A DNA stretch of 64,000 nucleotides from Paraspadella gotoi (lineage: Eukaryota; Animalia; Chaetognatha): assembly GCA_051294375.1 (NCBI GenBank), contig CM119264.1:12092263-12156262 (forward strand), given 5' to 3'. Position numbers and translations under genes: made by a program. How positions within the stretch are numbered: the stretch's first letter is position 1; each line of letters opens with the position of its first letter. The notes under the pieces are model-generated. The model was not told where the DNA came from. It searched no databases and saw only the letters and a list, made by a program, of their open reading frames with translations. Shown piece after piece: positions 535 through 63,969 of this stretch.

Positions 535-569
<35 letters not shown>

Positions 570-13655: not shown

Positions 13656-29256
<15,601 letters not shown>

Positions 29257-39277: not shown

Positions 39278-42200
39278 TCATTGGGAGTCGCGAGGAGACT
39301 CGGACGGAGACGAAGATTGAAGAGGAGAAATGACTGGATCGATGGGTGAACGACGAGGACGGTTCGATTCTAAGCAAAAATAAATACATAGGAGATAGAT
39401 ATGTATAAATGATGAGCATAATTAAGGACGAGCAGAGTTGAATTACCGACTTGGAAATTCAAATTGAATGATATTTATTATTTAATCATCATGAAAAGTA
39501 AAGTTTTATTAATTAAAACGAGTATGAAAGAAAATTTACGCCAACATAAAATATATTAAAAAAATTTGTAAAGGATTATCATCATGTAATATGTACTCCT
39601 CACGCGTCACTGCTAAAGCCTAAAATTGCACAATTATAAAAAAACGCCAACTTACCTTTCCTTTGAGCGACCGTGCCAGGCATCCTCGTTTTGACTGCCT
39701 TCGAGACTTCCGCTGCCAACAGAATAGGCGACTCTCGACTGGATGTAGGCGTAGAGGAAAGCGGCGATCGGCGCCCAGACAGAGCCGAGTGGGGCGCGTC
39801 GAGTGGAGACCCGGCCGCAGAGATCGGCGATGATCGTGGGGAAGAGCGGAGCGATGGGGTCAGCCCAGGATCGGGAGTGGGGACCAACTGAGGATGGGAG
39901 GAGGGAATCGGCAACGAACTGGGGGAGGCGGGATCGGGACGGCCCGTCGGTAAGGGATGGGAAGCTGCTCGCGGAACGTCGTAAGTCGATTTTAGTGCAA
40001 TTCTCACGGAGGCGTCCGGCGGGAGTGAAAGAGACTTTGGCTTCGAAGCGTCAGCGTTGCCATCTTCGGACGAACTCTTTCCCTCGTCGCTCTCTATGCC
40101 GCTAATCCCGTTCGAGGTAGCGTCAGAATCGCGACGTAGACGAGGATTGGGCAGTTCGGGTTTGCGTTTTCCGGCGGCCGACGCGTCGCCGCAATCTTTT
40201 CGGGACTCCGGAAGGAATTTTCTCTCTTCCGCGGGAAGGGCTTTACGTTTGACATCGCCCGAATTTCGGTTCCGCGTTCTTGAGTCTTTAGTCTCCATCT
40301 TGTCGACGACCCGCTTTTCCCCGAAGTCTTTCATTCGTGAAACGTTAGAAAGAGGCGACCGACCACTAAGCTCCGCTTCGTATTGCAAATTGGTCAGTTC
40401 CGCCTCCACTGAAGATTTGGAAGACTCCAGTTCGACGACGATCTTCCTTAAACCGTCCACCTCGGCGGCCTGCCCGACAACCATCTCCTTTGCCTCGGCC
40501 AACTGCTTCATTCGCGCCTCCAATTCGTCTCTCATCTTCTCCATGTCGACGCGACTGACGAACTCTCGCTCACGCGACGACGCCACCACCGACTCCAAAC
40601 CCACCACCGACGCCTGCTCCGTCGTCAGCGCAGAACGGAGTGCGTCGCACTCGAGCCGTCTGTCGGAAATTTCCTGACAGGGAAAAACGAATCCGGTAGT
40701 ACGTAATACGAATCAACGAAGATCAGAATTAGTGTTTTGGTAATAATATAAGTACCTGATTTAATTGTTGACAAAGTGTATCCTTGTTTGAGAGTTCTAG
40801 TTGAATCTTTTCCTTAGCCGCGTCTAACTGTGCGGCGAGCCCTCTTAGTGACCGAAGATCACTTTGTAAGGTGTCGATCGTCTGTAAAATTTTAATGTTT
40901 AAAATAGTAAAATCAAAAAAGTTCACAGATGACGTCACATTGTCATTGATACCTGTCTGGCGTCCTTGAGATCCATCTTTAGCTCTTGTATTTCTGTGGC
41001 CAAATTTTGGGACTGGGAATCGCTCATGCTTCGTTCATCTTCCGAAGACCGAAGTCGTTGTTGTAAGTCCTCAACATGGGAAGCCATTTGAGACTGGAGA
41101 GGGTGAAATAGGAGTAACTATAATACTGTAGTAGCCGCGCCAGAAATTTATTTTTTTGGCACAACTTGGAGTTAACGTGAACTCACACGTTCGTAAAGAC
41201 GACCCTCGACTTCCGTTTGTAGCCTGACATTTTCCCCCTCCACATCTCTCACACGCTGATCCAGCAGCTGCATCTGCGAGGACATGGCCTGGATTTGCTG
41301 CACTAGTTCTTCGTGATGAGAATGAGAACCTTCTACGATTTTCGAAGCCTGAAAAAAAAAATTGCGTCAAGATGTGGGAATTGCTAGACCAGAAACATGG
41401 ACGAACCGACCTGCGAAAGGTTTGCTTGTTCTCTAAGCAACTCCAGCTCAACCGCTGAGAGTCTGTCCCGGACAGTTTCTCCTTCTAAATTGAGCCGTTG
41501 TATTTCCGAAGTCAATTCGGCCGCGTCTTCCGTCAACTTCCGGTTCCTCCTCGACAACGCCTCTTTCTCTTGACGGTATTCGTTCTCGACCTCGGCGCGA
41601 GATCTCACGTCTTCTTGGAGATGGCGCAATTGTTTTTCTCGCGTCTCGATGTCAGACGATTGTCGATCCAATTCTTCCTCCAGAGCCTTGATCTGAATCG
41701 TAGGAGAACTAAAAGAGTTTACTTTCCTCAAAACAGAAATATTGACTCATTAAAATACCTCGGTTTCTTTATTCTTTAAAGCATCTTTGATATTATTCAT
41801 TTCGGCGGTAAGGTTGACCAATTGTTCAGTCTTATCGTCGAGAGCTTCTTGGGCCAAATCACGTTCTTTATCGACCTTGAATAGATAAATTATGACCTCA
41901 TCTCGCATTTGGTCACACGCATTTACCGTCAACCTCAGCGCAAAACTTACCACCGAAAGCGCCGCCTTAGCCTTTTCCAATTCGTTCTTCGTCGCGTGAA
42001 GCTTTAAACTCAACTCTTTGACCTTCGTCTCGACTGTCATCGTTTTCTCTCCGCTGGCGCTGACCGACGACGCAGCGGCGGAGAGTTGGCGGCGCAAATC
42101 GATCGTCTCTTCCTGAGCAGCAGCGCATTGCGTCCGCAACTCGGCCACGTGCCCTCGTTCTTCGCGGAGTTCGTCGTGGTTGACGCGAAGTTGGCGCTCC

Positions 42201-44864
42201 ATCGTATGCAAATGCTGCCTCATGGACTGCAGAGTTTCGCGAAGATGACTGCACTCGGCGAGGGCATTGTCTCTTTCGCGTTCGGCGCCGGAGACGCGAC
42301 TCTCCAGCTGATTGACTTGGCGCATGGATTCGGTCTGAGTTTGCAAAGATTTCTGCTCGATCGAAGCCATTCGCGCCTCCACGGAAGCTTTTTCTTCGGT
42401 CAATGCCTTCCGGTCTTTGAGCAACGACTCTCGCTCACTCTCCAGGCGTTTGACGACCGAGTGTGCTACGAGACGATCGGTGGAACTCGGTTCTGGAGAT
42501 GAGACGAAGTAATTTTAATTAAAATAGATTAGGTGATAATCCATCAAAACATTTACCCGTAATATTTTCATTGACGTCCCTGTCTGGGCCTTTAATCATT
42601 TTTAAGTACGCGTGCTCAAGCTCGTTTTGAACCTAGCGAAGGAAATGTAGATTGCGGTAATTATAACATTGTGATTTTTAGCTTGGGGTTTGATTGGGAG
42701 AGTTCCATAAAAAAATAATTTTTACCTGGATGAGTTTCAATTGAATTCTATCCTTATCGTCGCTGGTTTCTTGCAGTTGTTTCTGTGTGACGAAGACTTT
42801 CTCCTCCAAAAATTTGACTTCACCACGAAGATTGTCCTCCTTATTTCTTAGGGTCACGAGGGTAGATCTCTCCGCAGCCAACTCGTCTTCAATTATGCGC
42901 CGATTCTTTTCTGTCGTCACCAAGTCGTGACGCTGACCATCCAATTGACTGCAGACGTGACAAGGTGGATGTAAAGAATTTTTAATATAAAGAAAACTGG
43001 GCCAATCAACGGATAACGAACCTTTTTTGCAACGTCACCAGATTCTTCAATTCGAGAAATTCGCGCCGTGAATTTCTTAATTCTTCCTCCAGCTCTTCCA
43101 ATCGCCTCAACGACGTCGTTTCATTTTCTTCAAATTCGAGGAGCTTCTTCGTCCAGGCCTCTTTCTCCGCTTCGAAGATAAGGCGAGCATCGGACAACTC
43201 TCGCTCTCGAGCTTCCAACAAGCTCTCCACCTCCTTCAATCGTACCTTGGTCTCCTCTACCTCAAGGGACTTGTCGCTTACAACCCTTTCCTTGGCGGCT
43301 TTAAGCTCCGCAACTTTGGTTGTCAAGGATTCTAATTCTGACTTGATAAGCGCTGGGTCCAGGACGGATTCTTTTTTTGAAAAAGAAAATGGTTTAAAAA
43401 ATATTGTTTAAGAAATAGACCAATTGTGGACGCATCAATTTTCGGATTAAGATTGTCGCGTCCACATAATCATTTTCGCACCTGGGGGTGTTGTTTTAAT
43501 TTTGATGCTTGTTTCACCGCTCCTAAACTCAGCAACCTGCAAACATTTTTCCTTGATAAGTGCGATACTAATCAAATAAAATTTCCTGAACGATAAAATA
43601 ACCTGATCGTGAAGGGCTTTGTTTTCTTCCGTGAGCAGAGTGATCTGGTCGTTCATCCTTTGGGCCATCCTCTGCATAGCGTCCTCTCTAGCCGAGGCGT
43701 CTACGGCGGCTTCTGGTCTCCCGCCATCAAGTAGTCGTTGCAGCCGCGCGATTTCGGTATCGCGTGCGTCTAATTGATTCTGCAGATCTCGGGCAGAGGA
43801 TGTAAGAGTCTCCGCCTTATGCTCGAGATCGGCTGCGAATTATTTTTAAGAATTTCATGACTAAATAGAATAGAATAGAATAGAAAAATAAATATCAACG
43901 CGACTCACCGAGTTCTTTTTCCAGAGAGGCAATTCTTTTGTCAGACACAGCTATCAAGTCGAGGGAGACTTTAGCAGACGATCCCTGGCTAATAGTCAAG
44001 GGGTCGCCGGGTGGCAATAGAGACTCGATATCCATTCGTTGGCGCCGGAAAGGGACTTTTTTTTTATTCCCGCCTGCAAAAGAAAAATACAAATCAGAGA
44101 ACGCTCTAATAGTGACTATTAAAATTCCCTCAAACCTGGAGTTTGGACAACAGCTTGAAAATTTTTTTCCTGCAGCTTGAGGATTTTTTTTGTTTTCTCG
44201 TTAGACTCTTGCTCCAAAGAGTTTAACTTGTGAAGGTATTGAGAGTTAAGGAATCGTAAATCTGTATTTTGGTGCTCCACCTTGCGAAAATTGCTCTTTA
44301 AGTCCTGTTTTTAAAAAACGTTCAATTGACTATAAAAAAGACAGAATCAATGAAAAATTTTAGTAACCTTGACAGTTTTTTCACGATCTTCCTTTTCCCG
44401 CAAAAGCTTCAAATGGATATCGGTGTTTTCCCTGACCAATCTCGCGTTTTCTGGGGAAGAATGAAAAATAAAAAGACCATCAAGTAAAATTAACCAATAC
44501 TTTACTATCAAAAGTACTATTACCGTTCTTGTAAGACTCGAGGCTAGATTGCCCTAGAGCCAAACTTAAACTCGCCGGGGCATCGATGGCGCCAACAGGC
44601 GGGCCGACAGCAGAAAGAGATGATCCGCTGGCCCCCTTGCGCGCGTTCTTAAGGCTGGTTGTGGTCCTGACCAAATCCGCCAATAAACGTTGAACAAGGG
44701 GCAAGGAATCCATTCCGAGGGGCTAAGAAAGTAACATGATCATTTAGTCCAAATATACACAGATTAAAAAAGAACACCGCAAGAATCAACACCTGCTGGA
44801 AACCTAACTGATCCAGCCGTTTCCTCAACATCATGTACCGCTGCTCTGACGAGGGAATCGCCAT
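39278..44864 (-). CDS. CEP135: Centrosomal protein CEP135/BLD10 (multi-exon coiled-coil protein)
   Basis: N-terminus 'EQRYMMLRKRLDQLGFQQ|PLGMDSLPLVQRLLADLVRTTTSLK' and 'LRFLNSQYLHKLNSLEQES...ILKLQEKNFQAVVQTPGGNKKKVPFRRQRMDI' are diagnostic for CEP135. GT-AG exons were traced in frame through the 5' two-thirds; the last exon 39369-39278 ends in TGA. Confidence 0.93.
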
Positions 44865-45197
44865 TTTGTCGGGTTAAAGGGTGTATTTTGTTTTTTAATG
44901 TCACATCTTCACTGGTTAAAGAAAATTTAAACTTCAAAGGTGATTCTGCTAATGATAAAATGTATTAACAAATGGCACAATTAAGGATAAAGAGTTGGGA
45001 CAAAAACACGAAAAAAAATTACATGTACTATTTTACATCGTCAAAACGTATTTTAAATAAAAAATATATTCCTTCAGTTTAGTTTTAGTTTGAACCAGAT
45101 CCCATCATCAAGTTGTGTAAAAGTTATTCAACGTATACGCATATATATCATAAATCATGTAAATCAATTACCATAATTGTCCTTCAGATAAAAAATA

Positions 45198-48100
45198 CTA
45201 AAAGGATATCAAATCATTCTCAATCGCGTTTTCTTCCTCCTCGTCAAACGTCGGCTGTATCATAGGGGGTTGACCTTGCTCCAGCTTACGGAGATGATTG
45301 GCGGAAAAGATGGAGGAGCGGCGAATGCGTCGCATCTCCGGGGTGTTGCCCCCGAACAAAAAAGCGTCTTCCTTCAAAACGGGTGGGTGAGCGAAAGGAG
45401 AGTTGGGATCCACTGATGACGTTGGTTTGGTTGGCGTGAAGGTTAACAAAGTGACCACCGGCTCGACCAGGGCGTGGGAGGGAGACTCGTTAACCGACGC
45501 GCTTGGTTGCGATGGGGAAGACGAAGGCTGGGCGCGTTTGGGCGGAGTTGAAGGAACCACGTCTTGCGCCGCTAATACTCTCGAGGGGCTGGCTTTAGCA
45601 GGACTCTCCTTGGCTTTCATCATTTGATTCATCTTCTTTTTAGCAAGGAACGCGCGAAAATTCATGCGCGGCTTTTTAGGCTTGGAAGCATCGACTTAAT
45701 AGGAAAAAAAAAATTACCCTCTAAACTTCCTTATGTATTTAATTATTCACAACTTTTTCCCAGTCAACCTGGGGCCGCATTCTTCTTAGGAAGTTGATTT
45801 TTGACAGCGGCCAGCGGGCGCTTTGAGGCGACAGGAATGACCGCGGGTTCTTCGACGACCCATCCGTTGGCTTCGAGACGAAACAATTTCGCGAATCCCT
45901 CGTCCACTTCCTCAATCTGTCCAAAACAGTGAAAAATTTTACAGGAATAAATAATAATTCCAAAAAAATAAAAATAAATTTAAAAAAACGACGTCTGAGC
46001 GCCGCGCCAGCAGACTCGCCTGAATGCCGACCATCTCCCAGAAACCCTGAAGGTCCGACGGCGCAGTCCTAGGTTCTCCCTCGGGTGGATGAATGCAATT
46101 GTCGCACAGACCCCGGAATTGCTTGAACTTTTTCGTGATGAGGAGCTTTGCCTTTCCGGTGACAGCGCGGATCTGGCCTTTTAGCTCTTCCGACACGGCA
46201 GGGTCTTCGAGAAATTTCTCAGCTCGAGTGGACAACGAGGTGAAATGATCTGCGGGACGAATGGGAAAAGAAATCGAATTCGGTCAACTAACCGCGAGAA
46301 TAAAAGACAAGCGTGACAAGGTGGACCGATGAAAAATTGGAATTTGGTAAAAAATAAAAAATCAATACCTATTTGATCGTCCATAGTTTTAATGAATTCG
46401 TTGGCTTTGTCGACGTACTCTGGAGAAACTTCTACCTCTTCGTTTTTGACGACGTCGGCGACGATAGCCTCATTGGACGGCTTTGCCATTGATGTTCGAG
46501 GATTAATGTCTTTGCTTTCCACCGCTTGGCTTTTCTCTTCTCTGTCGCACGGTACAGATTCATCGACAACCGGCGAAGGTGAATCGACGACAGACAAGAC
46601 GCGGCTGATGTCATCGATCGGCACTTCAAAAACTGACCGGTTGAGAGGTCCAGACTCGACATTACCGTCTGATATTAATTCACTGTTCAAGCTCGATCCT
46701 TTTTTCAAGGCAACAACATTGCTTAATTCTAAATACGTTTGATCATTTTTATCTTCAAATGCCGCATCTTTCGAATTCTCTCTTGTTGTGAAGTCTTTAT
46801 CACGGGATAGAATAGGCGAAGTTTCTTTGACATCCATCATTTCTTCCTCAATACATGGGTCATCAGAGGGTTCGAGATATTTCATGGAACAAGACTCCAC
46901 CGACCGTTCGTCGGATGTTTGGGAATTCGTTCCGTCAGACGTCTTATCGACACCCATTTGAGAAGGTGGTTCGATGATTCTTTCCGATTGTGAATCGTGT
47001 ACTAAAACCGGAGGTTTCGGAAAATTGACGGAGATTTCATCCTCTGATTTCACCAGCAAATCTTCGGAATATACATGAACATTTTTGGTTTTTGAAGAAT
47101 CGAGATTGGAAGCCACTGACAGGTTTGCGTCCGAACGACTAGCCGCCGAACTCTCAATTCGCGATCGGTCGGTGGCCGATCTATTCGCCAATTTGGTTCC
47201 TTTACATCCTTTGACAGAGGCTAAAAAGGCGTCGACTTTTTTACGAGAAGAAGCGGCGTGTTCGGCTGTAACAATCACGAGATTATTAATCAAAAATATT
47301 GGAACATCGACTCGCCTTTCTAATGAATAATATACCTGGCTTCCCACTCTTGTCAACTTCGTCACAGTCGTTGTGCGGGACGTCGGTGTCAGATTGGACG
47401 ATGTCAATCACGACGGCCTGAGCATCTTTGGAACTGACTTGCTCGATGTTGCATTCATGGACATCAACCTCTTGCTGAGATTGGGAACGAGTAGACATTG
47501 AAACATTACGGTCAGGAGGCGCTGCGGAGAGTTTAGCTCCGCCGCGAGAGGTCGAAACAGCTAAAGCCCCTCGCCCAGAAACCGTCGAAGCCGTTGGGAC
47601 CCCGCGCCCAGATGACGCCCCGCGCCCTCGGCCCGTGACTGAGGCCCCGCGCCCGCGCTCAGTAGCTGAAGCCCCCCGCGTGGAAACTGAAGGAACTGTG
47701 GCGCCGAGACGAGAGACAGGAGCAAGCCTTGATGTTTTTGGATTCTTATCGGGACGCGAAGGAGGTCGTGACTGGGGACAGAGTTTTACGCCGATGGCAG
47801 ATCCAGCGACCTGTTTCTCGGAGCCGGTCGACTTCATGGACAGTGCTCGGACTTGACCGTGCGAGGCTAAAGGTCGAGCCGGAATACGGCTAAAGGAAGC
47901 GGATTCCACCTGTTTAACGACATGAACTTTAAAGGGCATCTTCTTTGACATTTTCTCCTCATCCTGTCGTTTTTCTGTAACAAGCGAAAAAAAATAAAAA
48001 CAATTTTAATCAAGAAATATTTTTGTAAAAAACTTTTTTATGTAGTATTCAGAGAGAGACTAACGTTTGTTTTTCTTGAAATTCTCATAATTTTGCATGA

Positions 48101-48392
48101 AGACGGTCCGTGATACAGCCCGTCTTTTTTCTCTCGGGGTGAGCGAGAGTTCTTCTGTTTTTTCCGAGTTATCCGTTTGCAGCAGTTCCGGCCGCCGCGC
48201 CATCATATTTGCTTGTCTTCCGTCTTTTTGTCTGAACTCGTTAGAAACAAAAGACTTTTAAAGTTTGAATGGTGTTGCTCCTTTAATCATAATAATTATT
48301 AACACTTACCTTTGCCTTTGAACATGAATGTTCTTATCACGAACGGTCTTAACGTCCCTCTGACGTTTCTTAGCAAGTATGGCCCGGTCCAT
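45198..48392 (-). CDS. DLGAP5: DLGAP5/HURP/Mars spindle microtubule-associated protein (GKAP domain); exons 48392-48310, 48231-48065, 47974-47336, 47265-46369, 46249-46020, 45916-45769, 45694-45198
   Basis: GKAP domain 'EELKGQIRAVTGKAKLLITKKFKQFRGLCDNC...DLQGFWEMVGIQ|IEEVDEGFAKLFRLEANGW'; basic N-terminus with 'KKMPFKV'; many S/T-P sites; C-terminal 'DLISF'. All splice phases are consistent. Confidence 0.88.
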
Positions 48393-48488
48393 CTTTCGCG
48401 CGTATTACAACTATATTACTCACTTAAAAAATACGTTCGTAATAAAAAACATACAAATATAAATGAATTAGAGGCTACAGGGTTGCGG

Positions 48489-49001
48489 TCAAGTATGATT
48501 CAATTTAAATCCTTTAACAGACTGGGTGCACAAGTACCAAATATAATCCCCCTCCTTTTCAAGACGTGATTTTTCTCTTTGGACGGGATCGAATGACTCC
48601 AAAGAGTCGAGGGTGAATTCGGCTCCGACTTTCCGATTCACGTTTAGCCCGAACCCTTCGTCGAGGCAGAGTTTCTCGCAAAATTCCTCAGAAATGTGAA
48701 AAGGATCATCGACCAACGTTCGACGAAACCCTTGAGGAAGGTCGGCGTCGACATGGGGTTCCACGCCCGAAATGCGGCAGGAAACGCAGGAGGCAGAAAG
48801 AGAGAGGCGTCGGTCCGATTCAGTCTCATCGTTGCCGTTTTGGGCAGATTCAACATCAAGAGAGACGATAGCCCCGCGGCGCAGGCGAGAGAGGCCCGCC
48901 AGAAATGGCGCCGAAAGCCCCGGATTTAGCGAAGCAGAGCGAGGGGCCTTCAGCGCCACGTGAAGGATCGTGGGAAACTTGGATGATAGTTTAGAGATAT
49001 C
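48489..49001 (-). CDS. MAD2L1BP: MAD2L1-binding protein (p31comet), exon 2
   Basis: Acceptor TTCTCAG|GAT is phase 0 and in frame with the 48489-48959 ORF. The end 'DYIWYLCTQSVKGFK' resembles the p31comet C-terminus 'DYIWFQAPVTFKGFR'. Confidence 0.82.
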   Translation of the reverse strand, partial: DISKLSSKFPTILHVALKAPRSASLNPGLSAPFLAGLSRLRRGAIVSLDVESAQNGNDETESDRRLSLSASCVSCRISGVEPHVDADLPQGFRRTLVDDPFHISEEFCEKLCLDEGFGLNVNRKVGAEFTLDSLESFDPVQREKSRLEKEGDYIWYLCTQSVKGFKLNHT

Positions 49002-49060: not shown

Positions 49061-49975
49061 TTACGGCGTAGTGAAAGTTACAGATCAAAATTCGAATAGT
49101 TGTTCATGGACAGTCTTGGACTAAAGAACATTGATATATAATTTTATTTTAAATTTCTCAATTTTCGCATACACTTATATTTATACATAGTACTTACCAT
49201 AGAAAATATCAAANNNNNNNNNNNNNNNNNNNNNNNNNNNNNNNNNNNNNNNNNNNNNNNNNNNNNNNNNNNNNNNNNNNNNNNNNNNNNNNNNNNNNNN
49301 NNNNNNNNNNNNNNNNNNNNNNNNNNNNNNNNNNNNNNNNNNNNNNNNNNNNNNNNNNNNNNNNNNNNNNNNNNNNNNNNNNNNNNNNNNNNNNNNNNNN
49401 NNNNNNNNNNNNNNNNNNNNNNNNNNNNNNNNNNNNNNNNNNNNNNNNNNNNNNNNNNNNNNNNNNNNNNNNNNNNNNNNNNNNNAATATATTTCTTTTT
49501 ATCAACTTTTCGTGAGAAATTCGAATCTGCTTTCAAAAATTAAAACAAAAAATTTAATTTTTTTAATTTTGAGTATTATGTATAAATATGGGCGTATTCG
49601 AAAATTGAAAAATACATTTTTTTATATTTAAANNNNNNNNNNTTCATGGACAGTCTTGCACTAAAGAACATTGATATATAATTTTATTTTAAATTTTTCA
49701 ATTTTCGCATACGCTTATATTTATACATAGTACTTACCATAGAAAATATCAAAGGTATAATTAACCTATATTTTAAATTTAGTATAAAAAATAGGTTTTT
49801 TAATTTTTAGCTAACTTAATGAAAAAAATTTTGATTAAGATTTTCTAAAAAAAAAATTATTTTAAATTTTGATATTTTCTATGGTAAGTACTATGTATAA
49901 TATAAGCGTATGCGAAAATTGAAAAATTTAAAATAAAATTATATATCAATGTTCTTTAGTGCAAGACTGTCCATG
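49061..49975. mobile_element. AT-rich foldback/MITE-like element with long imperfect inverted arms in the MAD2L1BP intron, present as several partial copies around N gaps; right arm also at ~58620-58907
   Basis: 'caattttcgcatac.cttatatttatacatagtact' (49160-95, 49699-734) is the inverse of 'agtactatgtataaatatgggcgtatgcgaaaattg' (58756-91, 49572-607). 49486-49632 is duplicated at ~58668-58816. Confidence 0.75.
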
Positions 49976-50078
49976 AACAACTATTCGAATTTTGATCTGT
50001 AACTTTCACTACGCCGTAATGACCAAATTGTACATTTTTGCTCTACAATTTTGATTTCCGAGTTCGATTTGTTCTCAG

Positions 50079-50583
50079 GATATCTCTAAAACTATCATCC
50101 AAGTTTCCCACGATCCTTCACGTGGCGCTGAAGGCCCCTCGCTCTGCTTCGCTAAATCGGGCTCTCGGCGCCATTTCTGGCGGGCCTCTCTCGCCTGCGC
50201 CGCGGGCTATCGTCTCTCTTGATGTTGAATCTGCCCAAAACGGCAACGATGACTGAATCGGACCGACGCCTCTCTCTTTCTGCCTCCTGCGTTTCCTGCC
50301 GCATTTCGGGCGTGGAGCCCCATGTCGACGCCGACCTTCCTCAAGGGTTTCGTCGAACGTTGGTCGATGATCCTTTTCACATTTCTGAGGAATTTGCGAG
50401 AAACTCTGCCTCGACGAAGGGTTCGGGCTAAACGTGAATCGGAAAGTCGGAGCCGAATTCACCCTCGACTCTTTGGAGGCATTCGATCCCGTCCAAAGAG
50501 AAAAATCACGTCTTGAAAAGGAGGGGGATTATTTGGTACTGTGCACCCAGTCTGTTAAAGGATTTAAATTGAATCATACTTGA
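50079..50583 (+). pseudogene. MAD2L1BP: Frameshifted inverted copy of MAD2L1BP exon 2 (probably artefactual)
   Basis: Same sequence as 49001-48489 with small indels. Confidence 0.7.
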
Positions 50584-50678
50584 CCGCAACCCTGTAGCCT
50601 CTAATTCATTTATATTTGTATGTTTTTTTTACGAACGTATTTTTTAAGTGAGTAATATAGTTGTAATACGCGCGAAAG

Positions 50679-53600: not shown

Positions 53601-53833
53601 GCCAACCAAACCAACGTCATCAGTGGATCCCAACCTCCTTTCGCTCACCCACCCGTTTTGAAGGAAGACGCTTTTTTTGTTCGGGGGCAACACCCGGAGA
53701 TGCGACGCATTCGCCGCTCCTCCATCTTTTCCGCCAATCATCTCCGTAAGCTGGAGCAAGGTCAACCCCCTATGATACAGCGACGTTTGACGAGGAGAGA
53801 AAACGCGATTGAGAATGATTGATATCCTTTTAG
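50679..53833 (+). pseudogene. DLGAP5: Frameshifted inverted copy of DLGAP5 (probably artefactual)
   Basis: ORF fragments identical to parts of the - strand gene (e.g. MSKKMPFKVHVVKQ..., ESKDINPRTS...), broken by 1-bp deletions. Confidence 0.75.
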
Positions 53834-54168
53834 TATTTTTTATCTGAGGACAATTATGGTAATTGATTTACATGATTTATGATATATATGCGTATACGTT
53901 TATAACTTTTACACACTGATGATGGGATCTGGTTCAAACTAAAACTAAACTGAAGGAATATATTTTATTTAAAATACGTTTTGACGATGTAAAATAGTAC
54001 ATGTAATTTTTTTTCGTGTTTTTGTCCCAACTCTTTATCCTTAATTGTGCCATTTGTTAATACTTTTATCATTAGCAGAATCAACCTTTGAAGTTTTAAA
54101 TTTGTTCTTTAACCCAGTGAAGATGTGACATTAAAAGAACAAAAATACACCCTTTAAAACCCGACAAA

Positions 54169-57100
54169 ATGGCGATCCTCGTCAAGAGCAGCGTACATGA
54201 TGTTGAGGAACGGCTGGATCAGTTAGGTTTCCAGCAGGTGTTGATTCTTGCGGTGTTCTTTTTAATCTGTGTATATTTGACTAATGATCAATGTTACTTT
54301 CTTAGCCCCTCGGAAGGATTCCTTGCCCCTTGTTTCAACGTTTATTGGCGGATTGGTCAGGACCACACCAGCCTTAAGAACGCGCGCAGGGGCCAGCGAT
54401 CATCTCTTTCTGCTGTCGGCCCGCCTGTTGGCGCCATCGATGCCCCGGCGAGTTTAAGTTTGGCTCTAGGGCAATCTAGCCTCGAGTCTTACAAGAACGG
54501 GAATAGTACTTTTGATAGTAATATTGGTTAATTTTACTTTGATGGTCTTTTATTTTTATTCTTCCCAGAAAACGCGAGATTGGTCAGGGAAAACACCGAT
54601 ATCCATTGAGCTTTTTGCGGAAAAGGAAGATCGTGAAAAAACTGTCAAGGTTACTAAATTTTCATTGATTCTGTCTTTTTATAGTCAATGAACGTTTTTT
54701 AAACAGGACTTAAAGAGCAATTTTGCAAGGTGGAGCACAAATACAGATTACGATTCCTTACTCTCAATACCTTCACAAGTAAATCTTTGGAGCAAGAGTC
54801 TACGAGAAACAAAAAAATCCTCAAGCTGCAGGAAAATTTTCAGCTGTTGTCCAAACTCCAGGTTTGAGGGAATTTTATAGTCACATTAGAGCGTTCTCTT
54901 GATTTGTATTTTCTTTTGCAGGCGGGAATAAAAAAAAAGTCCCTTTCCGGCGCCAACGAATGGATATCGAGTCTCTATTGCCACCCGGCGACCCTTGACT
55001 ATTAGCCAGGATCGTCTGCTAAGTCTCCCTCGACTTGATAGCTGTGTCTGACAAAGAATTGCCTCTCTGGAAAAAGAACTCGGTTGAGTCGCGTTGATAT
55101 TTATTTTTTCTATTCTATTCTATTTAGTCATGAATTCTAAAAATATCGCAGCGATCTCGAGCATAAGGCGGAGACTTACATCCTCCCGAGATCTGCAGAA
55201 TCAATTGACGCACGCGATACCGAAATCGCGCGGCTTCATACGACTACTTGATGGGGAGACCAGAAGCCGCCGTAGACGCCTCGGCTAGAGAGGACGCTAT
55301 GCAGAGGAGCCCAAAGGATGAACGACCAGATCACTCTGCTCACGGAAGAAAACAAAGCCCTTCACGATCAGGTTATTTATCGTTCAGGAAATTTATTGGT
55401 TAGTATCGCACTTATCAGGAAAATGTTTGCGGTTGCTGAGTTTAGGAGCGGTTTGAAACACGCATCAAAATTAAAACAACACCCCCAGCGTGCGAAAATG
55501 ATATGTGGACGCGACAATCTTATCCGAAAATGATGCGTCCACAATTGCGTATTTCTTAACAATAGTTTTTAACATTTCTTTTCAAAAAAGAATCCGTCCT
55601 GGACCAGCGCTTATCAAGTCAGAATTAGAATCCTTTGACAACCAAAGTTGCGGAGCTTAAGCCGCCAAGGAAGGGTTGTAAGCGACAAGTCCCTTGAGGT
55701 AGAGGAGACCAAGGTACGATTGAGGAGGTGGAGACTTGTTGAAGCTCGAGAGCGAGAGTGTCCGATGCTCGCCTTATCTTCGAAGCGGAGAAAGAGGCCT
55801 GGACGAAGAGCTCCTCGAATTTGAAGAAAATGAAACGACGTCGTTGAGGCGATTGAAGAGCTGAGGAAGAATAAGAAATTCACGGCGGCGAATTCTCGAA
55901 TTGAAGAATCTGGTGACGTTGCAAAAAGGTTCGTTATCCGTGATTGGCCCAGTTTTTCTTTATATTAAAATTCTTTAATCCGACCTTGTCACGTCTGCAG
56001 TCATTGGATGGTCAGCGTCACGACTTGGTGACGACAGAAAGAATCGGCGCATATTGAAGACGAGTTGGCTGCGGAGAGATCTACCTCGTGACCTAAGAAA
56101 TAAGAGGGACAATCTTCGTGGTGAAGTCAAATTTTGGAGGAGAAGTCTCGTCACACAGAAACAACTGCAGAACCAGCGACGATAAGGATAGAATTCAATT
56201 GAAAGCTCATCCAGGTAAAAATTATTTTTTTATATGGAACTCTCCCAATCAAACCCAAGCTAAAATCACAATGTTATAATTACCGCAATCTACATTTCCT
56301 TCGCTAGGTTCAAACGAGCTTGAGCACGCGTACTTAAAATGATTAAAGGCCCAGACAGGGACGTCAATGAAAATATACGGGTAAATGTTTGATGGATATC
56401 ACCTAATCTATTTTAATTAAAATTACTTCGTCTCATCTCCAGAACCGAGTTCCACCGATCGTCTCGTAGCACACTCGGTCGTCAAACGCCTGGAGAGTGA
56501 GCGAGAGTCGTTGCTCAAAGACCGGAAGCATTGACCGAGAAAAGCTTCCGTGGAGGCGGCGAATGGCTTCGATCGAGCAGAATCTTTGCAAACTCAGACG
56601 CAATCCATGCGCCAAGTCAATCAGCTGGAGAGTGCGGTCTCCGCGCCGAACGCGAAAGAGACAATGCCCTCGCCGGTGCAGTCATCTTCGCGAAACTCTG
56701 CAGTCCATGAGGCAGCATTTGCATAGATGGAGCGCCAACTTCGCGTCAACCACGACGAACTCCGCGAAGAACGAGGGCACGTGGCCGAGTTGCGGACGCA
56801 ATGCGCTGCTGCTCAGAAGAGACGATCGATTTGCGCCGCAACTCTCCGCCGCTGCGTCGTCGGTCAGCGCCAGCGGAGAGAAAACGATGACAGTCGAGAC
56901 GAAGGCAAAGAGTTGAGTTTAAAGCTTCACGCGACGAGAACGAATTGGAAAGCTAAGGCGGCGCTTTCGGTGGTAAGTTTTGCGCTGGGTAATGTTTGTG
57001 ACCAAATGCGAGATGAGGTTATATTTATCTATTCAAGGTCGATAAAGAACGTGATTTGGCCCAAGAAGCTCTCGACGATAAGACTGAACATTGGCAACCT

Positions 57101-58594
57101 TACCGCGAAATGAAGAATACAAAGATGCTTTAAAGAATAAGAAACCGAGGGTATTTAATGAGTCAATATTTCTGTTTTGAGGAAAGTAAACCTCTTTTAG
57201 TTCTCCTACGATTCAGATCAAGGCTCTGGGGAAGAATTGGATCGACAACGTCTGACATCGACGCGCGAGAAAAAAATTGCGCCACTCCAAGAAGACGTGA
57301 GATCTCGCGCCGAGTCGAGACGAATACCGTCAAGAGAAAGAGGCGTTGTCGAGGAGGAAACCGGAAGTTGACGGAAGACGCGGCCGAATTGACTTCGGAA
57401 TACAACGGCTCAATTAGAAGGAGAAACGGTCCGTGACAGACTCTCAGCGGTTGAGCTGGAGCTTGCTTAGAGAACAAGCAAACCTTTCGCAGGTCGGTTT
57501 GCCATGTTTCTGGTCTAGCAATTCCCAATCTTGACGCAATTTTTTTTTCAGGCTTCGAAAATCGTGAAGGTTTCATTCTATCACGAAGAACTAGTGCAGC
57601 AATCCAGGCCATGTCTCGCAGATGCAGCTGCTGGATCAGCGTGTAGAGATTGGAGGGGAAAATGTTAGGCTACAAACGGAATCGGGTCGTCTTTACGAAC
57701 GTTGTGAGTTCACGTTAACTACAAGTTGTGCCAAAAAAATATTTCTGGCGCGGCACTACAGTATTACAGTTATCCTATTTCACCCTCTCCAGTCTCAAAT
57801 GGCTTCCCATGTTGAGGACTGACAACAACGACTTCGGTCTTCGGAAGATGAACGAAGCATGAGCGATTCCAGTCCCAAATTTGGCCACAGAAATACAGAG
57901 TAAGATGATCTCAAGGACGCCAGACAGGTATCAATGACAATGTGACGTCATCTGTGAACTTTTTTTATTTTACTATTAAACATTACAATTTTACAGACGA
58001 TCGCACCTTGCAAAGTGATCTTCGGTCACTTAGAGGGCTCGCCGCACAGTTAGACGCGGCTAAGGAAAGATTCAACTAGAACTCTCAACAAGATACACTT
58101 TGTCAACAATTAATCAGGTACTTATATTGTTTAAATACCAATAATAATAAATTACCAAAACACTAATTCTGATCTTCGTTGATTCGTATTACGTACTACC
58201 GGATTCGTTTTTCCCTGTCAGGAAATTTCCGCACGACGGCTCGAGTCGCGACGCCACTCCGTTCTGCGCTGACGACGGAGCAGCGTCGGTGGTGGGTTTG
58301 GAGTCGGTGGTGGCGTCGTCGCGTGAGCGGAGTTCGTCAGTCGCGTCGACATGGAGAAGATGAGAGACGAATTGGAGCGCGAATGAAGCAGTTGCCGAGG
58401 CAAAGGAGATGGTTGTCGGGCAGGCCGCTGAGGTGGACGGTTTAAGGAAGAATGTCGCGAACTGGAGTCTTCCAATCCTTCAGTGGAGCGGAACTGACCA
58501 ATTTGCAATACGAAGCGGAGCTTAGTGGTCGTCGCCTCTTCTAACGTTTCACGAATAAAGCTTCGGGGAAAAGCGGGTCGTCGACAAGATGGAG
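54169..58594 (+). pseudogene. CEP135: Frameshifted, 3'-truncated inverted copy of CEP135 (probably artefactual)
   Basis: ORF fragments match the - strand gene (RLDQLGFQQ, MNDQITLLTEENK, MERQLRVNHDELREE); truncated at the N gap. Confidence 0.75.
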
Positions 58595-58969
58595 NNNNNN
58601 NNNNNNNNNNNNNNNNNNNAGTTTTTTAAAGATTTTGACCCACTTAATGAAATAATTTTCTAAAAAGAAATATATTTCTTTTTATCAACTTTTCGTAAGA
58701 AATTCGAATCTGATTTTAAAAATTAAAACAAAAAAATTAATTTTTTTTTATTTTGAGTACTATGTATAAATATGGGCGTATGCGAAAATTGAAAAATACA
58801 TTTTTTTTATATTTAAAAATGTTCACAGTTACAAGCCTATTCAATGAACAGTGTTCATGATCGAAATTTTGATTCTACTTGATTTTAATATTTTTTTCTA
58901 CGCTTTATTGGTCAATGGTCATGTACCTAATTTGCCAGAAAATAATCAAACCCGGGCTTCGTAAATAAC

Positions 58970-59515
58970 CTGCAACTTCGAGGCAAAGTCTTGCGCCACG
59001 ACGAAGGACAAAAACTTTCTCATCGCTTTGGCGTTTCCGATTGCCGAGGCGGCGCTACGCGACGTCGGCGCAGGAAACGACAAGAGAAACGACTCTTTCG
59101 GGGAAACGAGGGTAGAGCCCAAGACGAGCGCTACTTCCGGCACGAACTCCGCGGCGGCGAAGGCGTCGTCGATGAAATCGAAGACGACGCCCAGACGAGC
59201 GAGGAAAGCGTCGCGGCGACGAAGAGTCAATTTGGGTCGTCGAGCAGAGGTCGCCGCTTTATTAATCGTCTCGAGCGCCCCGCGCTCTTCGTCCGCTCGT
59301 TTGTCGCCCGCCAAGATGTCGACGGGCGTTGGAATTTGATTCCTCACGTAGATGAGGTACTTAAGGGTTTCCTTGACGAGGGAGCCCCGAAGGGCGGAAG
59401 GAAGATGCCCGTCGAAGTTGATCGTGGCTGATGCGTCGGGAATAGTTCTTATAGGTCGGGTGTGGAGTTTACGCGCTTTAACGCGGGATTCCGATAGTAT
59501 TTTTGGGTTTTCCAT
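58970..59515 (-). CDS. MAD2L1BP: MAD2L1-binding protein (p31comet), exon 1
   Basis: 'LVKETLKYLIYVRNQIPTP' and 'VPEVALVLGSTLVSPKESFLL' match the p31comet HORMA core. Donor CAG|GTTATT (phase 0) joins exon 2 to give ~352 aa. Confidence 0.85.
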
Positions 59516-59751
59516 GATAAACTATCACCCATGGACATTTTAGTTCTTCATTATATATTTAAAACAAGAAAAATAAAGAACAATATAAGCATAAAAAATG
59601 TAAAGCTAATATTAATAATTGCCGATAACTTTGAATGACATGAAATAAAAAAAAAGTCACGAATCAAAAACCAAATCAATAATTATAAAGTTGTATTCAA
59701 ATATAATCAGAACCTTTGTAGATTGTACATCATTAATACCACTTTTAATTT

Positions 59752-61335
59752 CTATAGTAATTTTAGAGATGGGATTTCCAAAGTACGCTTATCCGAGCAG
59801 AAAAAGGCAATTCCTTTTTCATAATAAGCGGCTTCGTTGATAAAAAGCGGATATGTTCCTCTGGTTCCGTCCCAAACGATTTCTTCTTCATTTGGTTTTA
59901 AAAATATCGGTCGACCGACTTCCAAAAATGTGTAATCCTTGTCCTACGCGGCCATAGGATAATCGACATACGTCAAAAAATAAACAAATTTCTTAAAAAG
60001 ACTGCAATTCTATTGAAATTTGTACCAACGGGAGGGTACCTGTAAATCTGGATGAATTACAGCCGCGACCTCGTGGGGCGAGTTTCCGTCACGCGGAAAG
60101 TCGACGGTCCCCGTAGCAACGAACACTTCCGCCATTTTTTTTTCAGAGATACGAACTTCGTTAAGACTTTGCAAAAAGTCCAAGACGAACTGGACCGCGA
60201 GCTTTTGCCGACGTACGACGTCTGCCCGATAAACTCCCTGGGGTTGTGGACCAACCTCTATGACCATGCCGAAATTAGTAGACAGCGTTGAAGCCAATGT
60301 GCTTTTCGCTAAACGAGCTGAGGTGACAAAAATCTCGCAAGGAACCGGAGGATCCATTCGGCGAAAACGAGACTAGGTACGGAGAGATTTCCTCAAGTCG
60401 TTTCAATAAAATAAGAAAACTAACCGGCAAGGTCAAAATGTTGCGCCGCTACACTTGACTCAGATAAACAAAATAACATAAATATATAAAATTTGTAAAA
60501 TAAGTATCTTTTCATTAATCATAATATACATATAAAATATGAACTTAAAAGATTATGCCACAAAACTATTTTTATATTAAAAAAAAAAAACCAGTTAACT
60601 TAATGATCACATAACTGCACAAAGTACATTGTAAAAGTATGATACATATTATATTATGCATCTTTAGGTACCTCACCTTTTTAATAAATAAAATAATATT
60701 ACTAAATTATAAATATTTAAAATATAAATAAAACACATTCCTACCCACCGACCAAAAAGTAACTTTAGTGCTCGTGGCGCAACTAAATCACTCGAACGCT
60801 TTAAAAACGACACCTGAACGTATAGCGCCGCATGCAACGAGAGCCAGTGGCGCTCGTTCTTTGTAACCCATTCGTCAAGGCTGGGCGACTCATCTATGAA
60901 ATGATGACTGAGAAAATAACCACATTATCAATTTCAGAAATCAGAATGACACTGATCTCAGGCTATTTACTTGACTAGTAGCATCACTCCCACGTTAGAA
61001 GTAGTATTGTGCAAATCGACCAAAAATTGATTCTTTCCCCCAAATTCTCGTTCGAGTTCAATGACGCGTTTCGTCTCATATGGCGTGACGTTGTCGACAG
61101 GCCGTTCCAGGTTTTTCCCGAAGTTGCGATTAAGGTCGACGTCGATGTATCGACGGCAGCGCTCGACGGCCAGCTCGTTGGTCAGGATAGTCGAAACGGA
61201 CAAGGAATCTCTGTCCAAAGTCACCGCACCCTCGGGGGTAAGCCAAAAACGCCATAAAAAGACGGAGCTCAATTCGTTTCCATGGGTTCCGCACAAAATA
61301 GCTAATTTTTGAATAGAGGAAATTCGAGTTTCCAT
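59752..61335 (-). CDS. ASPA: Aspartoacylase / aminoacylase-3 family (AstE_AspA) zinc hydrolase, multi-exon
   Basis: Motifs 'GTHGNE', 'RYIDVDLNRNF', 'DLHNTTSN', 'IEVGPQPQGV', 'DFPRD', 'IHPDLQ|DKDY' and 'PLFINEAAYYEKGIAF'; TAG stop at 59754-52. Internal exon boundaries are not fully resolved. Confidence 0.93.
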
Positions 61336-61527
61336 TTTGCTTCTAAAACATAATAAAACATTAATAACAAAAAGAATCTTTCCGTTTGCTTTATCCCATC
61401 TCCGGTGAACCCATAAGAGGCTTTCACGTGACAACAATAACATTGAGAAAAACAAAATCTATTTTTTTTAATATAACGTAGTCGAAATGTTGGGGGTGGT
61501 TTTATGAAGAATCAAAACCGCCACAAA

Positions 61528-63969
61528 TCAATCTAGGGGCGGCAACTTTCGTAGTTGGCGCTCTTGATATCGTTTCATGGAATCGATAACTTTTTCGTAT
61601 CCTCGTCGCTCCGCATCCATTTTCTCTCTATGACACCTTTCCTCCAATTCGATCTTTTCACGGAGCTGAAAGAGAGCCGCTCTTGCGTCATCGGCTACAG
61701 AGTTAGCACCGTTGAGATTCTTGGAAAGCAGTTCTTTCTCGTGTCGCAGGTCTTCGACGCCGCAGTGTTTGATCCTAGTGGCGTGGGCCAATTCCAGCTT
61801 GGTCATTTTTTCCACTTTGGAGGCCTCCAAGCGGTCAAGCTGCTGCAATTTTCCGCCGAGGGTGCCATACTCTTCTTTCCGAGCAGCCAGCACGTCCTGG
61901 AGCTCTTTCAACTTTGGTTTGAGTTCCTCGCATCGCGCAGCTTCGTCCTCTGTCGATTTTAGAGTTTGAAGAACCTTCACGAGGGCTTCGTTGGTTTCTT
62001 TAACCTTAAGGGAGAAAAATATTTGTAAATTTAAGTCCATTTTAACGAAATATGTTTTTATACTTTTCTCTTTGATGAATACTTAATATTTACAGTTTAT
62101 ACCGTAGTAATTTAGCTAAATTTTTGGCCCGTTTGATTATATCTATCGTCCCGTTGAAGTCGTAACTAAAATTTAGCCGAGTAACAAGGTAAACAAACTG
62201 AAGTGTTTCAATCTCTCGAATCTTATCGATAGTCGTCGTCGTCGTCCGCTATCACTTCTCTTCACCTCTGCCCCTCTTTGCCCGGTCTCCTCGATGACGC
62301 CTTGAACTTGAGCGATCTCCTGTTGGTTCCCGACTAGCTTGTTCTTTTGTTCTTGAATCTCCTGTTGTAATTTCTCCGGCGATGGAACGATGTCCCGATT
62401 GAGATTCTCCACTTCCTCCTTCAAAGTTGCCTTTCGCAATTTCAGGTCGTCGTTAGACTTTTGAAGCTCGGATGCTTCCAGCTTTAGATGACGAATCTCT
62501 GGTCAGTTTTGAAACATTTTTAGAAAGTTGTAGGGTCGATGACAATGTACTATAGTAAATATGAATTAAACTAAGAGCAAAGTTTCCCTAGTCAATAGTA
62601 ATCCATCTCACTTGTGTCAAGTTCGGCCTGGCTTGCTTTGAGATCATCAATGGCTTTTCGCTTGTCCTCGATCTCAGCTTTTTTGGACCGAACCAGATGA
62701 ACGTTTTCTTCACGAATCTTTAGCCGATCATTGATCCACGACTTTGTTTCGTCAATTTGTTGTCGAAGTCCTTCTGACTGACTCCGAGCTTTCTTTTCGC
62801 GACTACCAAATGTAAATAAAAAGAATATAAAAATCAAGTAATAAATAAAACAGATTCTACATCAATCCAGCATTATAAAAAATTGGCGATCCCGGAGTTG
62901 AATACGCTCTGGAGGCTTATGGGAAAACGAAGAAAGATAAAAAAATAAATTTCGTTTCTATACGGAAAAGAAAATTTAAGACTAACAACAATTATAATAA
63001 AAACGTTGATAAGCTTCATGGGCGAAGGAATTTTTTTTTAAAATATTAGTATTTATAGTATTTTTTTTCGTTGCTTTAATAGATATTTATAAAATAACAG
63101 TTTTTATTTATGATTTTAACGATCATTTAATAATTGGGACATGTTTCGGTTTTTGTTCTTCGAACCTTCATCAGCCAGTTTTGATAGTTTTGAAAAATAT
63201 TTGGATTCTAACTTTGAGAGAAAGAGAGAGGCAATTTTAACCTTGATATCCTTTCTCTCTCTCTCCGAATTATTAAAAGATCGTTGTAATCATAAATAAA
63301 AACTTATTGTGTAAATATAATTATTATATTTTTTTATAAATTTATTAATATTAAAATATTTTTTTTAAATTTTCAATTATTATATACTTAAGCTAAACTT
63401 AAGTTTAACCCTAACTTACCCCTAATCTATTTTTAACCCTAACTTATTTTTTTTGTTATCTTACACTTATTCTTAATTTATTCTTATCCATAATTTATTA
63501 TAACCTTAATTTTTACCCAAATATATAACAAAAATAACAAATATTTAAAAATTGTGATATCTGAATTCCTTTTATTTTTTTCCTAGAAATTATCCTTTTC
63601 CGTTACATTTCTTTCGTTCCTCTTCTTTTTCCGTTAATTCTTTATGAAAAACCTTGCTCTTTGTTTTCCATATGCATCCAGAGCGTATTGATCTCCAGGA
63701 ATGCCAAAAAATTACTTGACTATATCGCTGGACATGCTGACTGTGTCCTCGCGATGTCGGCAAAAGTTAATGATGGCGCTGAGAATTTTTTCTAGACGCT
63801 GAGGATTAGGAGTGGTTATGTCGGCAAGCTTGAAGTCAGTGTAGCGACACGTGTATAAAAACCAGGACATAACCTTCGATAGGCGCAAGTACACCATAAA
63901 ATCGTTTTGAAGCTCGGGAAATGGGAGAGCGCTGTTCTCTTCGAACGTTAACATTGTGAGCTGCTCCGC
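61528..63969 (-). CDS. NUF2: Kinetochore protein NUF2 (NDC80 complex), 5' end outside the window; exons 63969-63716, 62802-62612, 62498-62266, 62004-61528
   Basis: CH-domain end 'DFKLADITTPNPQRLEKILSAIINFCRHRE', 'IVPSPEKL' motif and long coiled coil; splice phases are consistent. Confidence 0.9.
62883..63707. mobile_element. ~825-bp element with ~50-bp imperfect terminal inverted repeats filling a NUF2 intron; internal (T)AACCCTAAC-like repeats
   Basis: TTGGCGATCCCGGAGTTGAATACGCTCTGGAGGCTTATGGGAAAAC (+, from 62883) vs TTGGCATTCCTGGAGATCAATACGCTCTGGATGCATATGGAAAAC (-, from 63707). Confidence 0.75.

What the first reader, a model, noticed from the sequence alone, without database searches (positions are those of the whole stretch)
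39278..63969. Candidate animal 'mitosis operon': NUF2-ASPA-MAD2L1BP-DLGAP5-CEP135
Seen: once the inverted copy inside the MAD2L1BP intron is ignored, five unrelated genes lie head-to-tail on the - strand. Stop-to-ATG spacers are 192 bp (NUF2-ASPA), 236 bp (ASPA-MAD2L1BP), 96 bp (MAD2L1BP-DLGAP5) and 333 bp (DLGAP5-CEP135), and each is T-rich on the sense strand. Established: NUF2 (NDC80 kinetochore complex), p31comet (spindle-checkpoint silencing), DLGAP5/HURP (kinetochore fibres) and CEP135 (centriole) all act in cell division. Spacers of this size typify SL-trans-spliced operons in nematodes, tunicates and flatworms. Inference: a functionally coherent, proliferation-linked polycistronic unit. 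96 bp is very little room for a 3' UTR, terminator, promoter and 5' UTR. The cluster may extend beyond the window upstream of NUF2.
Basis: partly seen in the sequence, partly recalled or inferred. Interest (0 to 1): 0.85.

Follow-up and report, generated by a model that had tools for sequence, protein, structure and literature searches.

The report
Tight cell-division gene cluster, possible operon
Five intact genes of an unidentified animal, four of them predicted cell-division genes, lie head to tail only 96-333 bases apart, and assembled spliced sequence runs across three of the four gaps; they are likely read in shared transcripts as in worm operons, but no spliced leader has been seen and read-through of independent genes remains nearly as likely.

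Summary
Observation confirmed. NUF2, an aspartoacylase-family gene, MAD2L1BP (p31comet), DLGAP5 and a CEP135-like gene are intact on the minus strand, with stop-to-ATG gaps of exactly 192, 236, 96 and 333 bp. The other three gaps I could measure in the window are 1.1-3.9 kb. The 9-kb inverted copy is almost certainly a long-read assembly artefact, so the real cluster spans about 15 kb. New evidence comes from one public run (RNA by guess, but spliced). One 4,859-nt contig holds MAD2L1BP, the 96-bp gap, DLGAP5, the 333-bp gap and CEP135 exons 1-5. A 2,248-nt contig joins NUF2 to ASPA. A contig is not a molecule, so overlapping UTRs or read-through would look the same. No leader is shown, acceptor signals are good at only 2 of 4 starts, the T-richness equals that of introns, and ASPA is not mitotic. 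Best reading (about 0.5): one or two co-transcribed blocks, likely resolved by leader trans-splicing. Rival (about 0.38): packed independent genes. A single five-gene 'mitosis operon' is not shown. The scan has noted similar tight clusters in other animal genomes, without RNA data.

The parts
61528..63969 (-). NUF2, 3' four exons (63969-63716, 62802-62612, 62498-62266, 62004-61528); start lies outside the window
   Evidence: Pfam Nuf2; 3 of 3 introns skipped by an X1 contig; open frame
61336..61527 (-). 192-bp spacer NUF2-ASPA; ATTAAA at +56; five upstream ATGs; TTTTAG acceptor-like site 7 nt before the ASPA ATG
   Evidence: bridged by the 2,248-nt contig
59752..61335 (-). Aspartoacylase-family gene (ASPA/ACY3 type), 4 exons (61335-60971, 60907-60814, 60372-60040, 59943-59752), 327 aa
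   Evidence: Pfam; homologues; PDB aspartoacylase E 4e-15; introns 1 and 3 skipped, intron 2 present in contigs
59516..59751 (-). 236-bp spacer ASPA-MAD2L1BP, the T-richest (0.47), no strong acceptor
58970..59515 (-). MAD2L1BP (p31comet) exon 1
   Evidence: Pfam p31comet; atlas first hit p31comet 0.93; joined to exon 2 in the 4,859-nt contig
49868..58594 (+). Error-rich inverted copy of 40293-49213 inside the MAD2L1BP intron; assembly artefact (inferred)
   Evidence: 233 deletions, 48 insertions, 49 substitutions; flanked by N runs
48489..49001 (-). MAD2L1BP exon 2 with stop
48393..48488 (-). 96-bp spacer MAD2L1BP-DLGAP5; no AATAAA or ATTAAA, AATATA starting 25 nt before the ATG; weak AAG acceptor at -30; E2F-type TTTCGCGC (read on + strand) at 48394-48401
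   Evidence: bridged unspliced by the 4,859-nt contig
45198..48392 (-). DLGAP5/HURP, 7 exons, 886 aa, one GC-AG intron (46019-45917)
   Evidence: Pfam GKAP; 6 of 6 introns skipped
44865..45197 (-). 333-bp spacer DLGAP5-CEP135; CAG acceptor-like sites 47 and 81 nt before the ATG
   Evidence: bridged unspliced by the 4,859-nt contig
39278..44864 (-). CEP135/Bld10-like coiled-coil gene, 18 exons, 1366 aa

Best explanation
The five genes are likely transcribed as one or two shared precursors (at least NUF2-ASPA and MAD2L1BP-DLGAP5-CEP135), which would be cut into single-gene mRNAs by 3'-end cleavage and spliced-leader trans-splicing onto an acceptor just before each downstream ATG. Shown: intact genes, 96-333 bp gaps, and spliced contigs that carry three of the gaps unspliced. 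Inferred: that single molecules span the gaps, that the species has a leader, and that the mitotic trio is co-regulated. MAD2L1BP-DLGAP5 is the strongest junction, because its only poly(A)-like hexamer would put the upstream 3' end at about the downstream ATG. ASPA is probably a passenger.
For: (1) Four consecutive same-strand gaps of 96-333 bp, against 1,339, 1,079 and 3,900 bp for the three other gaps measured in the window. (2) A 4,859-nt X1 contig equals, to the base, the predicted length of spliced MAD2L1BP + 96 bp + spliced DLGAP5 + 333 bp + CEP135 exons 1-5. A 2,248-nt contig likewise equals spliced NUF2 + 192 bp + ASPA 5' part. These contigs skip the introns, including the 261- and 913-nt NUF2 introns, so plain DNA does not explain the spacer cover. 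(3) ASPA has a TAG acceptor with 10 of 14 pyrimidines 7 nt before its ATG, which would remove five upstream ATGs (chance within 30 nt: 8%); CEP135 has CAG sites at -47 and -81 that the contig does not use for cis-splicing. (4) AATAAA is in 0 of 4 spacers. (5) Precedent, passages read: SL-trans-spliced genes are enriched among stem-cell genes in Macrostomum and its operon gaps peak near 100 bp (PMC8629364); chaetognath candidate operons were defined by gaps under 250 bp (PMC12460157).
Against: A contig across two genes shows no single transcript; there is one run from one study, and it is RNA only by guess. Acceptor signals are weak at DLGAP5 (AAG, 8 of 14 pyrimidines) and MAD2L1BP, and 2 good sites of 4 is within chance (0.28-0.49). 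AATAAA is also absent from 1.18 kb after CEP135, so its lack in spacers says little. An E2F-type site lies 2 nt before the DLGAP5 ATG, a weak hint of its own promoter (10 motifs tried). ASPA intron 2 is present in the contigs, as expected of read-through from NUF2 rather than of a finished mRNA. Compact animal genomes can lack operons (Dimorphilus, PMC7854359), and Amphimedon has 1,168 overlapping head-to-tail pairs (PMC4773876). The lineage is unidentified, so it is unknown whether it has a leader at all.
Confidence: 0.5

Rival explanations
1. Independent genes with very short UTRs packed in a compact genome. Each has its own small promoter, partly inside the upstream gene's 3' end. Overlapping UTRs and leaky termination give RNA cover across the gaps, and the assembler fuses it. 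The cell-division trio would be co-regulated through separate E2F-type promoters or be a chance neighbourhood.
For: Contig bridging needs only low-level cover (tool caveat). E2F-type site at 48394-48401, the only one in about 15 kb of mostly non-coding sequence apart from one in TMEM165 coding DNA. ASPA intron 2 is present in contigs that continue from NUF2. Acceptors are not above chance. Mushroom fungi make read-through polycistronic RNAs (mean inter-ORF distance 364 nt) from genes that are also transcribed independently (PMC4503453, passages). Amphimedon and Dimorphilus precedents.
Against: Four gaps of 333 bp or less in a row, measured stop to ATG, while neighbours sit 1.1-3.9 kb apart. 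The 96-bp gap has no canonical poly(A) signal and forces overlap of terminator and promoter. The ASPA acceptor sits where an outron acceptor would.
Confidence: 0.38
2. A stable, polyadenylated polycistronic mRNA (MAD2L1BP-DLGAP5-CEP135) that is not cut by trans-splicing; downstream frames would be translated by re-initiation, leaky scanning or internal entry.
For: The 4,859-nt contig is fully spliced and unbroken across both gaps, and all 24 depth bins checked (44040-49031) are explained by that one contig to within 0.1.
Against: Contigs drop short side branches and fuse overlapping RNAs. The first frame is 352 codons and the CEP135 spacer holds nine upstream ATGs, which makes re-initiation unlikely (general knowledge, recalled).
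Confidence: 0.08
3. The adjacency is an assembly product: MAD2L1BP's two exons, or the two halves of the cluster, were joined wrongly across the gap-filled inversion.
For: N runs and an error-rich inverted copy lie inside the cluster.
Against: The 4,859-nt contig joins exon 1 to exon 2 at the predicted GT-AG sites and continues through DLGAP5 into CEP135 with no gap; none of the four spacers contains an N.
Confidence: 0.02

Closest known systems
SL2-type operons of Caenorhabditis (as described in PMC1488885 and PMC7986045, passages read)
   Same: Same-strand housekeeping genes with about 100 nt between the upstream 3' end and the next acceptor; NUF2-ASPA fits if ATTAAA at +56 is the signal (inferred).
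   Different: No leader shown; lineage unknown; cis acceptors here are not of a fixed TTTCAG type (the nematode consensus is recalled).
Intercistron-less operons of Ciona intestinalis (PMC1488885, passages read)
   Same: MAD2L1BP-DLGAP5 leaves almost no room between a possible 3' end and the next ATG; unresolved dicistronic cDNAs were the evidence there, as bridging contigs are here.
   Different: There, SL-bearing full-length ESTs and cloned single cDNAs were shown; here only assembled contigs exist and the acceptor at DLGAP5 is weak.
Operons of Macrostomum lignano (PMC8629364) and Paraspadella gotoi (PMC12460157), passages read
   Same: Conserved, proliferation- or germline-linked genes; gaps near 100 bp (Macrostomum) or under 250 bp (Paraspadella); up to nine genes.
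   Different: Those papers report enrichment across many operons, not a single locus of spindle, checkpoint and centriole genes; trans-splicing was demonstrated there.
Read-through polycistronic transcripts of Agaricomycete fungi (PMC4503453, passages read)
   Same: Tandem genes a few hundred bases apart, spliced RNA across the gaps, weak termination signals.
   Different: Fungal; independent transcription was shown there and is untested here.

Membership tests
SL-resolved eukaryotic operon | Adjacent same-strand genes with short gaps (under 250 bp as used in PMC12460157) | tested here: met
   3 of 4 gaps are under 250 bp stop-to-ATG (192, 236, 96); the fourth is 333 bp
SL-resolved eukaryotic operon | Polycistronic precursor spanning the genes | tested here: inconclusive
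   Spliced contigs bridge 3 of 4 gaps, but a contig is not a molecule; one run
SL-resolved eukaryotic operon | Common non-genomic leader on downstream mRNAs | tested here: inconclusive
   None among the 4 loose ends or the 8 of 57 shown; contigs drop rare variants and cannot show starts
SL-resolved eukaryotic operon | Unpaired splice acceptor before each downstream ATG | tested here: inconclusive
   Good YAG site at ASPA (-7) and CEP135 (-47, -81), weak at DLGAP5 and MAD2L1BP; 2 of 4, chance 0.28-0.49
SL-resolved eukaryotic operon | SL RNA gene in the genome | not testable with these tools
   No whole genome is held; Rfam finds 0 families in the window
SL-resolved eukaryotic operon | One upstream promoter and no internal capped starts | not testable with these tools
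   No raw reads, CAGE or ATAC data were available
Read-through tandem genes (fungal type) | Each gene is also transcribed independently | not testable with these tools
   Only a weak E2F-type motif at DLGAP5
Read-through tandem genes (fungal type) | Weak termination signals of upstream genes | tested here: inconclusive
   AATAAA in 0 of 4 spacers, but also absent after the last gene
CEP135/Bld10 | Conserved N-terminal segment followed by a long coiled coil | tested here: inconclusive
   Colinear weak PDB hits for exon 1 (E 0.008, residues 7-25) and exon 2 (E 0.73, residues 26-53) on two different chains; no named homologue

The most novel reading that the evidence does not exclude
MAD2L1BP-DLGAP5-CEP135 (with or without NUF2-ASPA) is a true, functionally coherent mitotic operon in an animal lineage not yet known to have operons: spindle-checkpoint silencing, kinetochore-fibre and centriole genes expressed from one promoter, resolved by an undescribed spliced leader or left as a stable polycistronic mRNA.
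Probability: 0.2. Interest if true: 0.8.

Novelty: new member of a known kind. Interest (0 to 1): 0.48.

Why it matters
Animal operons are usually functionally mixed, and SL trans-splicing has a patchy distribution. A three- to five-gene unit of mitotic genes would be a clear case of selection for co-regulation, and a direct test of the idea that operons serve proliferating or germline cells. It could also add a lineage to the list with trans-splicing. Practically, the locus warns that transcript assemblies of this species fuse neighbouring genes and that the assembly carries a 9-kb false duplication of DLGAP5 and CEP135.

Tried and rejected
Run search: no RNA holder listed on record; X1 (share 0.67) is RNA by guess; X2 and X3 of the same study laid 0 and 1 records. 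ASPA-MAD2L1BP gap: listed contigs reach about 59646 from ASPA and 59545 from MAD2L1BP, and the bin depth is accounted for without a contig between. This part without cover proves nothing and is not used as evidence. The MAD2L1BP contig begins at 59545, right after an AG, with no foreign letters shown; contigs cannot show starts, so this is not used either. No leader- or poly(A)-like loose ends at the DLGAP5 or CEP135 starts: absence in contigs only. One bin in the NUF2-ASPA spacer has unexplained extra depth (121 against 118.2); 49 loose-end rows and 152 piece rows and 16 piece rows were not shown. No separate silent stretch was laid; skipped introns served as the internal control. T-richness as an operon mark was rejected. 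An acceptor weight matrix from 30 introns was noisy and was replaced by a simple YAG and pyrimidine count. A codon-score scan for further genes was too noisy to use and its output was cut, so small genes in the 3.9-kb gap are not excluded. Lineage and synteny: homologue searches with MAD2L1BP and CEP135 exons found 0 hits. The ASPA exon gave 36 hits at 31-48%. A tree of 37 rows put ASPA beside fish ACY3 (92/86, not starred, long branch). A TMEM165 exon search gave no close relative, a metagenome scan 0 loci, and look-ups by place and gene names 0 earlier findings. A xenacoelomorph origin was a guess from 43% GC and was not confirmed. Literature: no paper held 'spliced leader', 'operon' and 'Xenoturbella' together. 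Listings showed no title or abstract start describing an operon of mitotic genes; only those searches were made, and no supplements were read.
Full report
Observation. The window is animal DNA (43% GC, CpG observed/expected 1.35); no whole genome is held. Exon models built on GT/GC-AG sites give five open frames on the minus strand: NUF2 (5' end outside the window, stop 61528), ASPA (61335-59752), MAD2L1BP (59515-58970 and 49001-48489), DLGAP5 (48392-45198) and a CEP135-like gene (44864-39278). Pfam confirms Nuf2, AstE_AspA, p31comet and GKAP above cut-off (19 single exons or ORFs scanned). CEP135 rests on two weak, colinear PDB hits and its coiled coil. The roles of these proteins in cell division are recalled, not tested. 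The claimed T-richness is ordinary: 0.38-0.47 in spacers against 0.39 in introns.

The inverted copy. 49868-58594 mirrors 40293-49213 at 95.5% identity, between N runs. Aligned end to end it has 233 deletions, 48 insertions and 49 substitutions; 249 of 281 indels are single-base, and 188 of 190 in coding sequence break the frame. That is the profile of a poorly corrected long read folded back on itself (inference). Without the block 49214-58619 the cluster spans about 15.3 kb.

RNA-type evidence. One run, X1, holds 0.67 of the sampled words; it is RNA only by the tool's guess. A 2,248-nt contig runs through spliced NUF2, the 192-bp spacer, ASPA exons 1-2 and into ASPA intron 2. A 4,859-nt contig starts at 59545 and joins MAD2L1BP exon 1 to exon 2 across the artefact. 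It then carries the 96-bp spacer, DLGAP5 with 6 of 6 introns removed (one GC-AG), the 333-bp spacer and CEP135 exons 1-5. Both lengths equal the lengths predicted from my models exactly. The spacers are therefore present, unspliced, in sequence that is otherwise spliced. The tool's caveat stands: a contig across two genes shows no single transcript, and this is one run of one study. The ASPA-MAD2L1BP junction is untested.

Sequence signals. Of 30 cis acceptors, 20 end in CAG, 6 in TAG and 4 in AAG. ASPA has TAG with 10 of 14 pyrimidines 7 nt before its ATG, downstream of five upstream ATGs; CEP135 has CAG sites (9 of 14) at -47 and -81; DLGAP5 has only AAG (8 of 14) at -30; MAD2L1BP has nothing good. 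A YAG with 9 or more pyrimidines occurs in 26% of 60-nt and 38% of 100-nt non-coding stretches, so 2 of 4 is within chance (0.28-0.49). The two unlinked genes checked also have an acceptor-like site 14-16 nt before the ATG, which may mean 5' UTR introns or general trans-splicing. AATAAA is in 0 of 4 spacers and is also absent for 1.18 kb after CEP135. The 96-bp spacer has only AATATA, starting 25 nt before the DLGAP5 ATG, so a MAD2L1BP 3' end made there would fall at about that ATG (inferred). An E2F-type TTTCGCGC sits 2 nt before the same ATG; the motif occurs 10 times in the window against 14.9 expected, twice in 15 kb outside the five coding sequences, and 10 motifs were tried, so it is a weak lead for an internal promoter.

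Context and chance. The other three gaps measured are 1,339 bp (CEP135 to a same-strand membrane-protein ORF), 1,079 bp (convergent, includes an N run) and 3,900 bp (SAM-SH3 gene to TMEM165): the cluster is locally much tighter, but n is 3. With an assumed 3-8% cell-division genes among 15,000, four or more in five neighbours is expected 0.06-2.9 times per genome, or 0.004-0.18 times if all must share a strand. The coherence is thus notable but not decisive in a scan of many genomes.

Mechanism. I favour, at about even odds, shared precursors resolved by leader trans-splicing, in one or two blocks, with ASPA a passenger. Shown: genes, gaps, bridging contigs. Inferred: single molecules, a leader, one promoter, co-regulation. 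The near-equal rival is independent genes with overlapping ends and read-through. A stable polycistronic mRNA is a distant third.

Comparison with what is known (passages read by term search, unless stated). Ciona operons lack intercistronic DNA and were shown by dicistronic cDNAs and SL-bearing ESTs; Caenorhabditis gaps are about 100 nt (PMC1488885). SLOPPR defines operons by leaders first and by distance only optionally (PMC7986045). In Macrostomum 85% of neoblast genes are trans-spliced and 39% lie in operons (PMC8629364). In Paraspadella 18% of genes are in operons, the longest of nine genes (PMC12460157). The acoel Symsagittifera trans-splices 30% of genes (PMC9911081). Against: Dimorphilus is compact with no operons or leaders (PMC7854359); Amphimedon has a median gap of 587 bp and 1,168 overlapping head-to-tail pairs (PMC4773876); mushroom fungi make read-through polycistrons from independently transcribed genes (PMC4503453). 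PMC11521371 (passages and section 6) was read for genome statistics only. No supplements were read. The locus works like an SL-type operon in layout; membership is not established, because the leader, the SL RNA gene and the single promoter could not be tested.

Lineage. Not determined. The closest ASPA homologues are 33-38% identical over the whole protein (lancelet, fish ACY3, annelid, coral), and the tree position beside fish ACY3 is weak. No relative's locus was found, so synteny of the cluster is untested.

Earlier scan notes list five similar tight clusters in other animal genomes, none with RNA data; they are unchecked leads and add no support.

Verdict. A real, unusually tight cluster with contig-level evidence of RNA across three junctions. 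Operon about 0.5, packed independent genes about 0.38. New member of a known kind if true; interest 0.48, rising to about 0.8 if a mitotic operon is shown in a lineage without known trans-splicing.

Noticed in passing
window 33157-36220 (+): TMEM165/GDT1 gene (Pfam) lies one ORF away from CEP135; both genes are listed in the human 4q11-q12 region (PMC8261101, one passage). Possible old linkage, not tested in other animals.
   Followed up: partly
window 60373-60813 (-): ASPA intron 2 (441 nt) is present in X1 contigs while introns 1 and 3 are skipped; retention would truncate the enzyme.
   Followed up: partly
window 60040-60372 (-): The aspartoacylase does not match the human KYATTRS segment that holds substrate-binding residues Y164 and R168 (roles recalled), so it may be ACY3-like rather than N-acetylaspartate-specific; the tree places it weakly beside fish ACY3.
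   Followed up: partly
window 45917-46019 (-): GC-AG intron in DLGAP5, supported by a contig joint.
   Followed up: yes
window 11-1263 and 5160-6496: Direct duplicate at 85.7% identity with 85 gap openings, near an N run; perhaps a second long-read artefact.
   Followed up: no
window about 13700-29256 (+): Large SAM / SH3 / SAM gene (SASH1/SAMD5-like by domain order; name recalled) with long microsatellite-rich introns, a contrast to the packed housekeeping cluster.
   Followed up: no
window 37300-37938 (-): Single-exon ORF of about 210 aa with hydrophobic segments and PPxY-like motifs, no Pfam family; same strand as the cluster, 1,339 bp after CEP135, with an acceptor-like TAG 16 nt before its ATG.
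   Followed up: partly
window 59675-59679: An X1 contig carries 29 extra, self-complementary letters with a 5-nt duplication in the ASPA 3' region: a small insertion allele or transposon footprint.
   Followed up: partly
whole window: CpG observed/expected is 1.35 (1.28 in coding sequence), which suggests little or no gene-body methylation (inference).
   Followed up: no
window 49103-49213, 49486-49753, 58669-58817: The real MAD2L1BP intron holds a short AT-rich repeat with inverted arms, which may have caused the fold-back artefact.
   Followed up: partly
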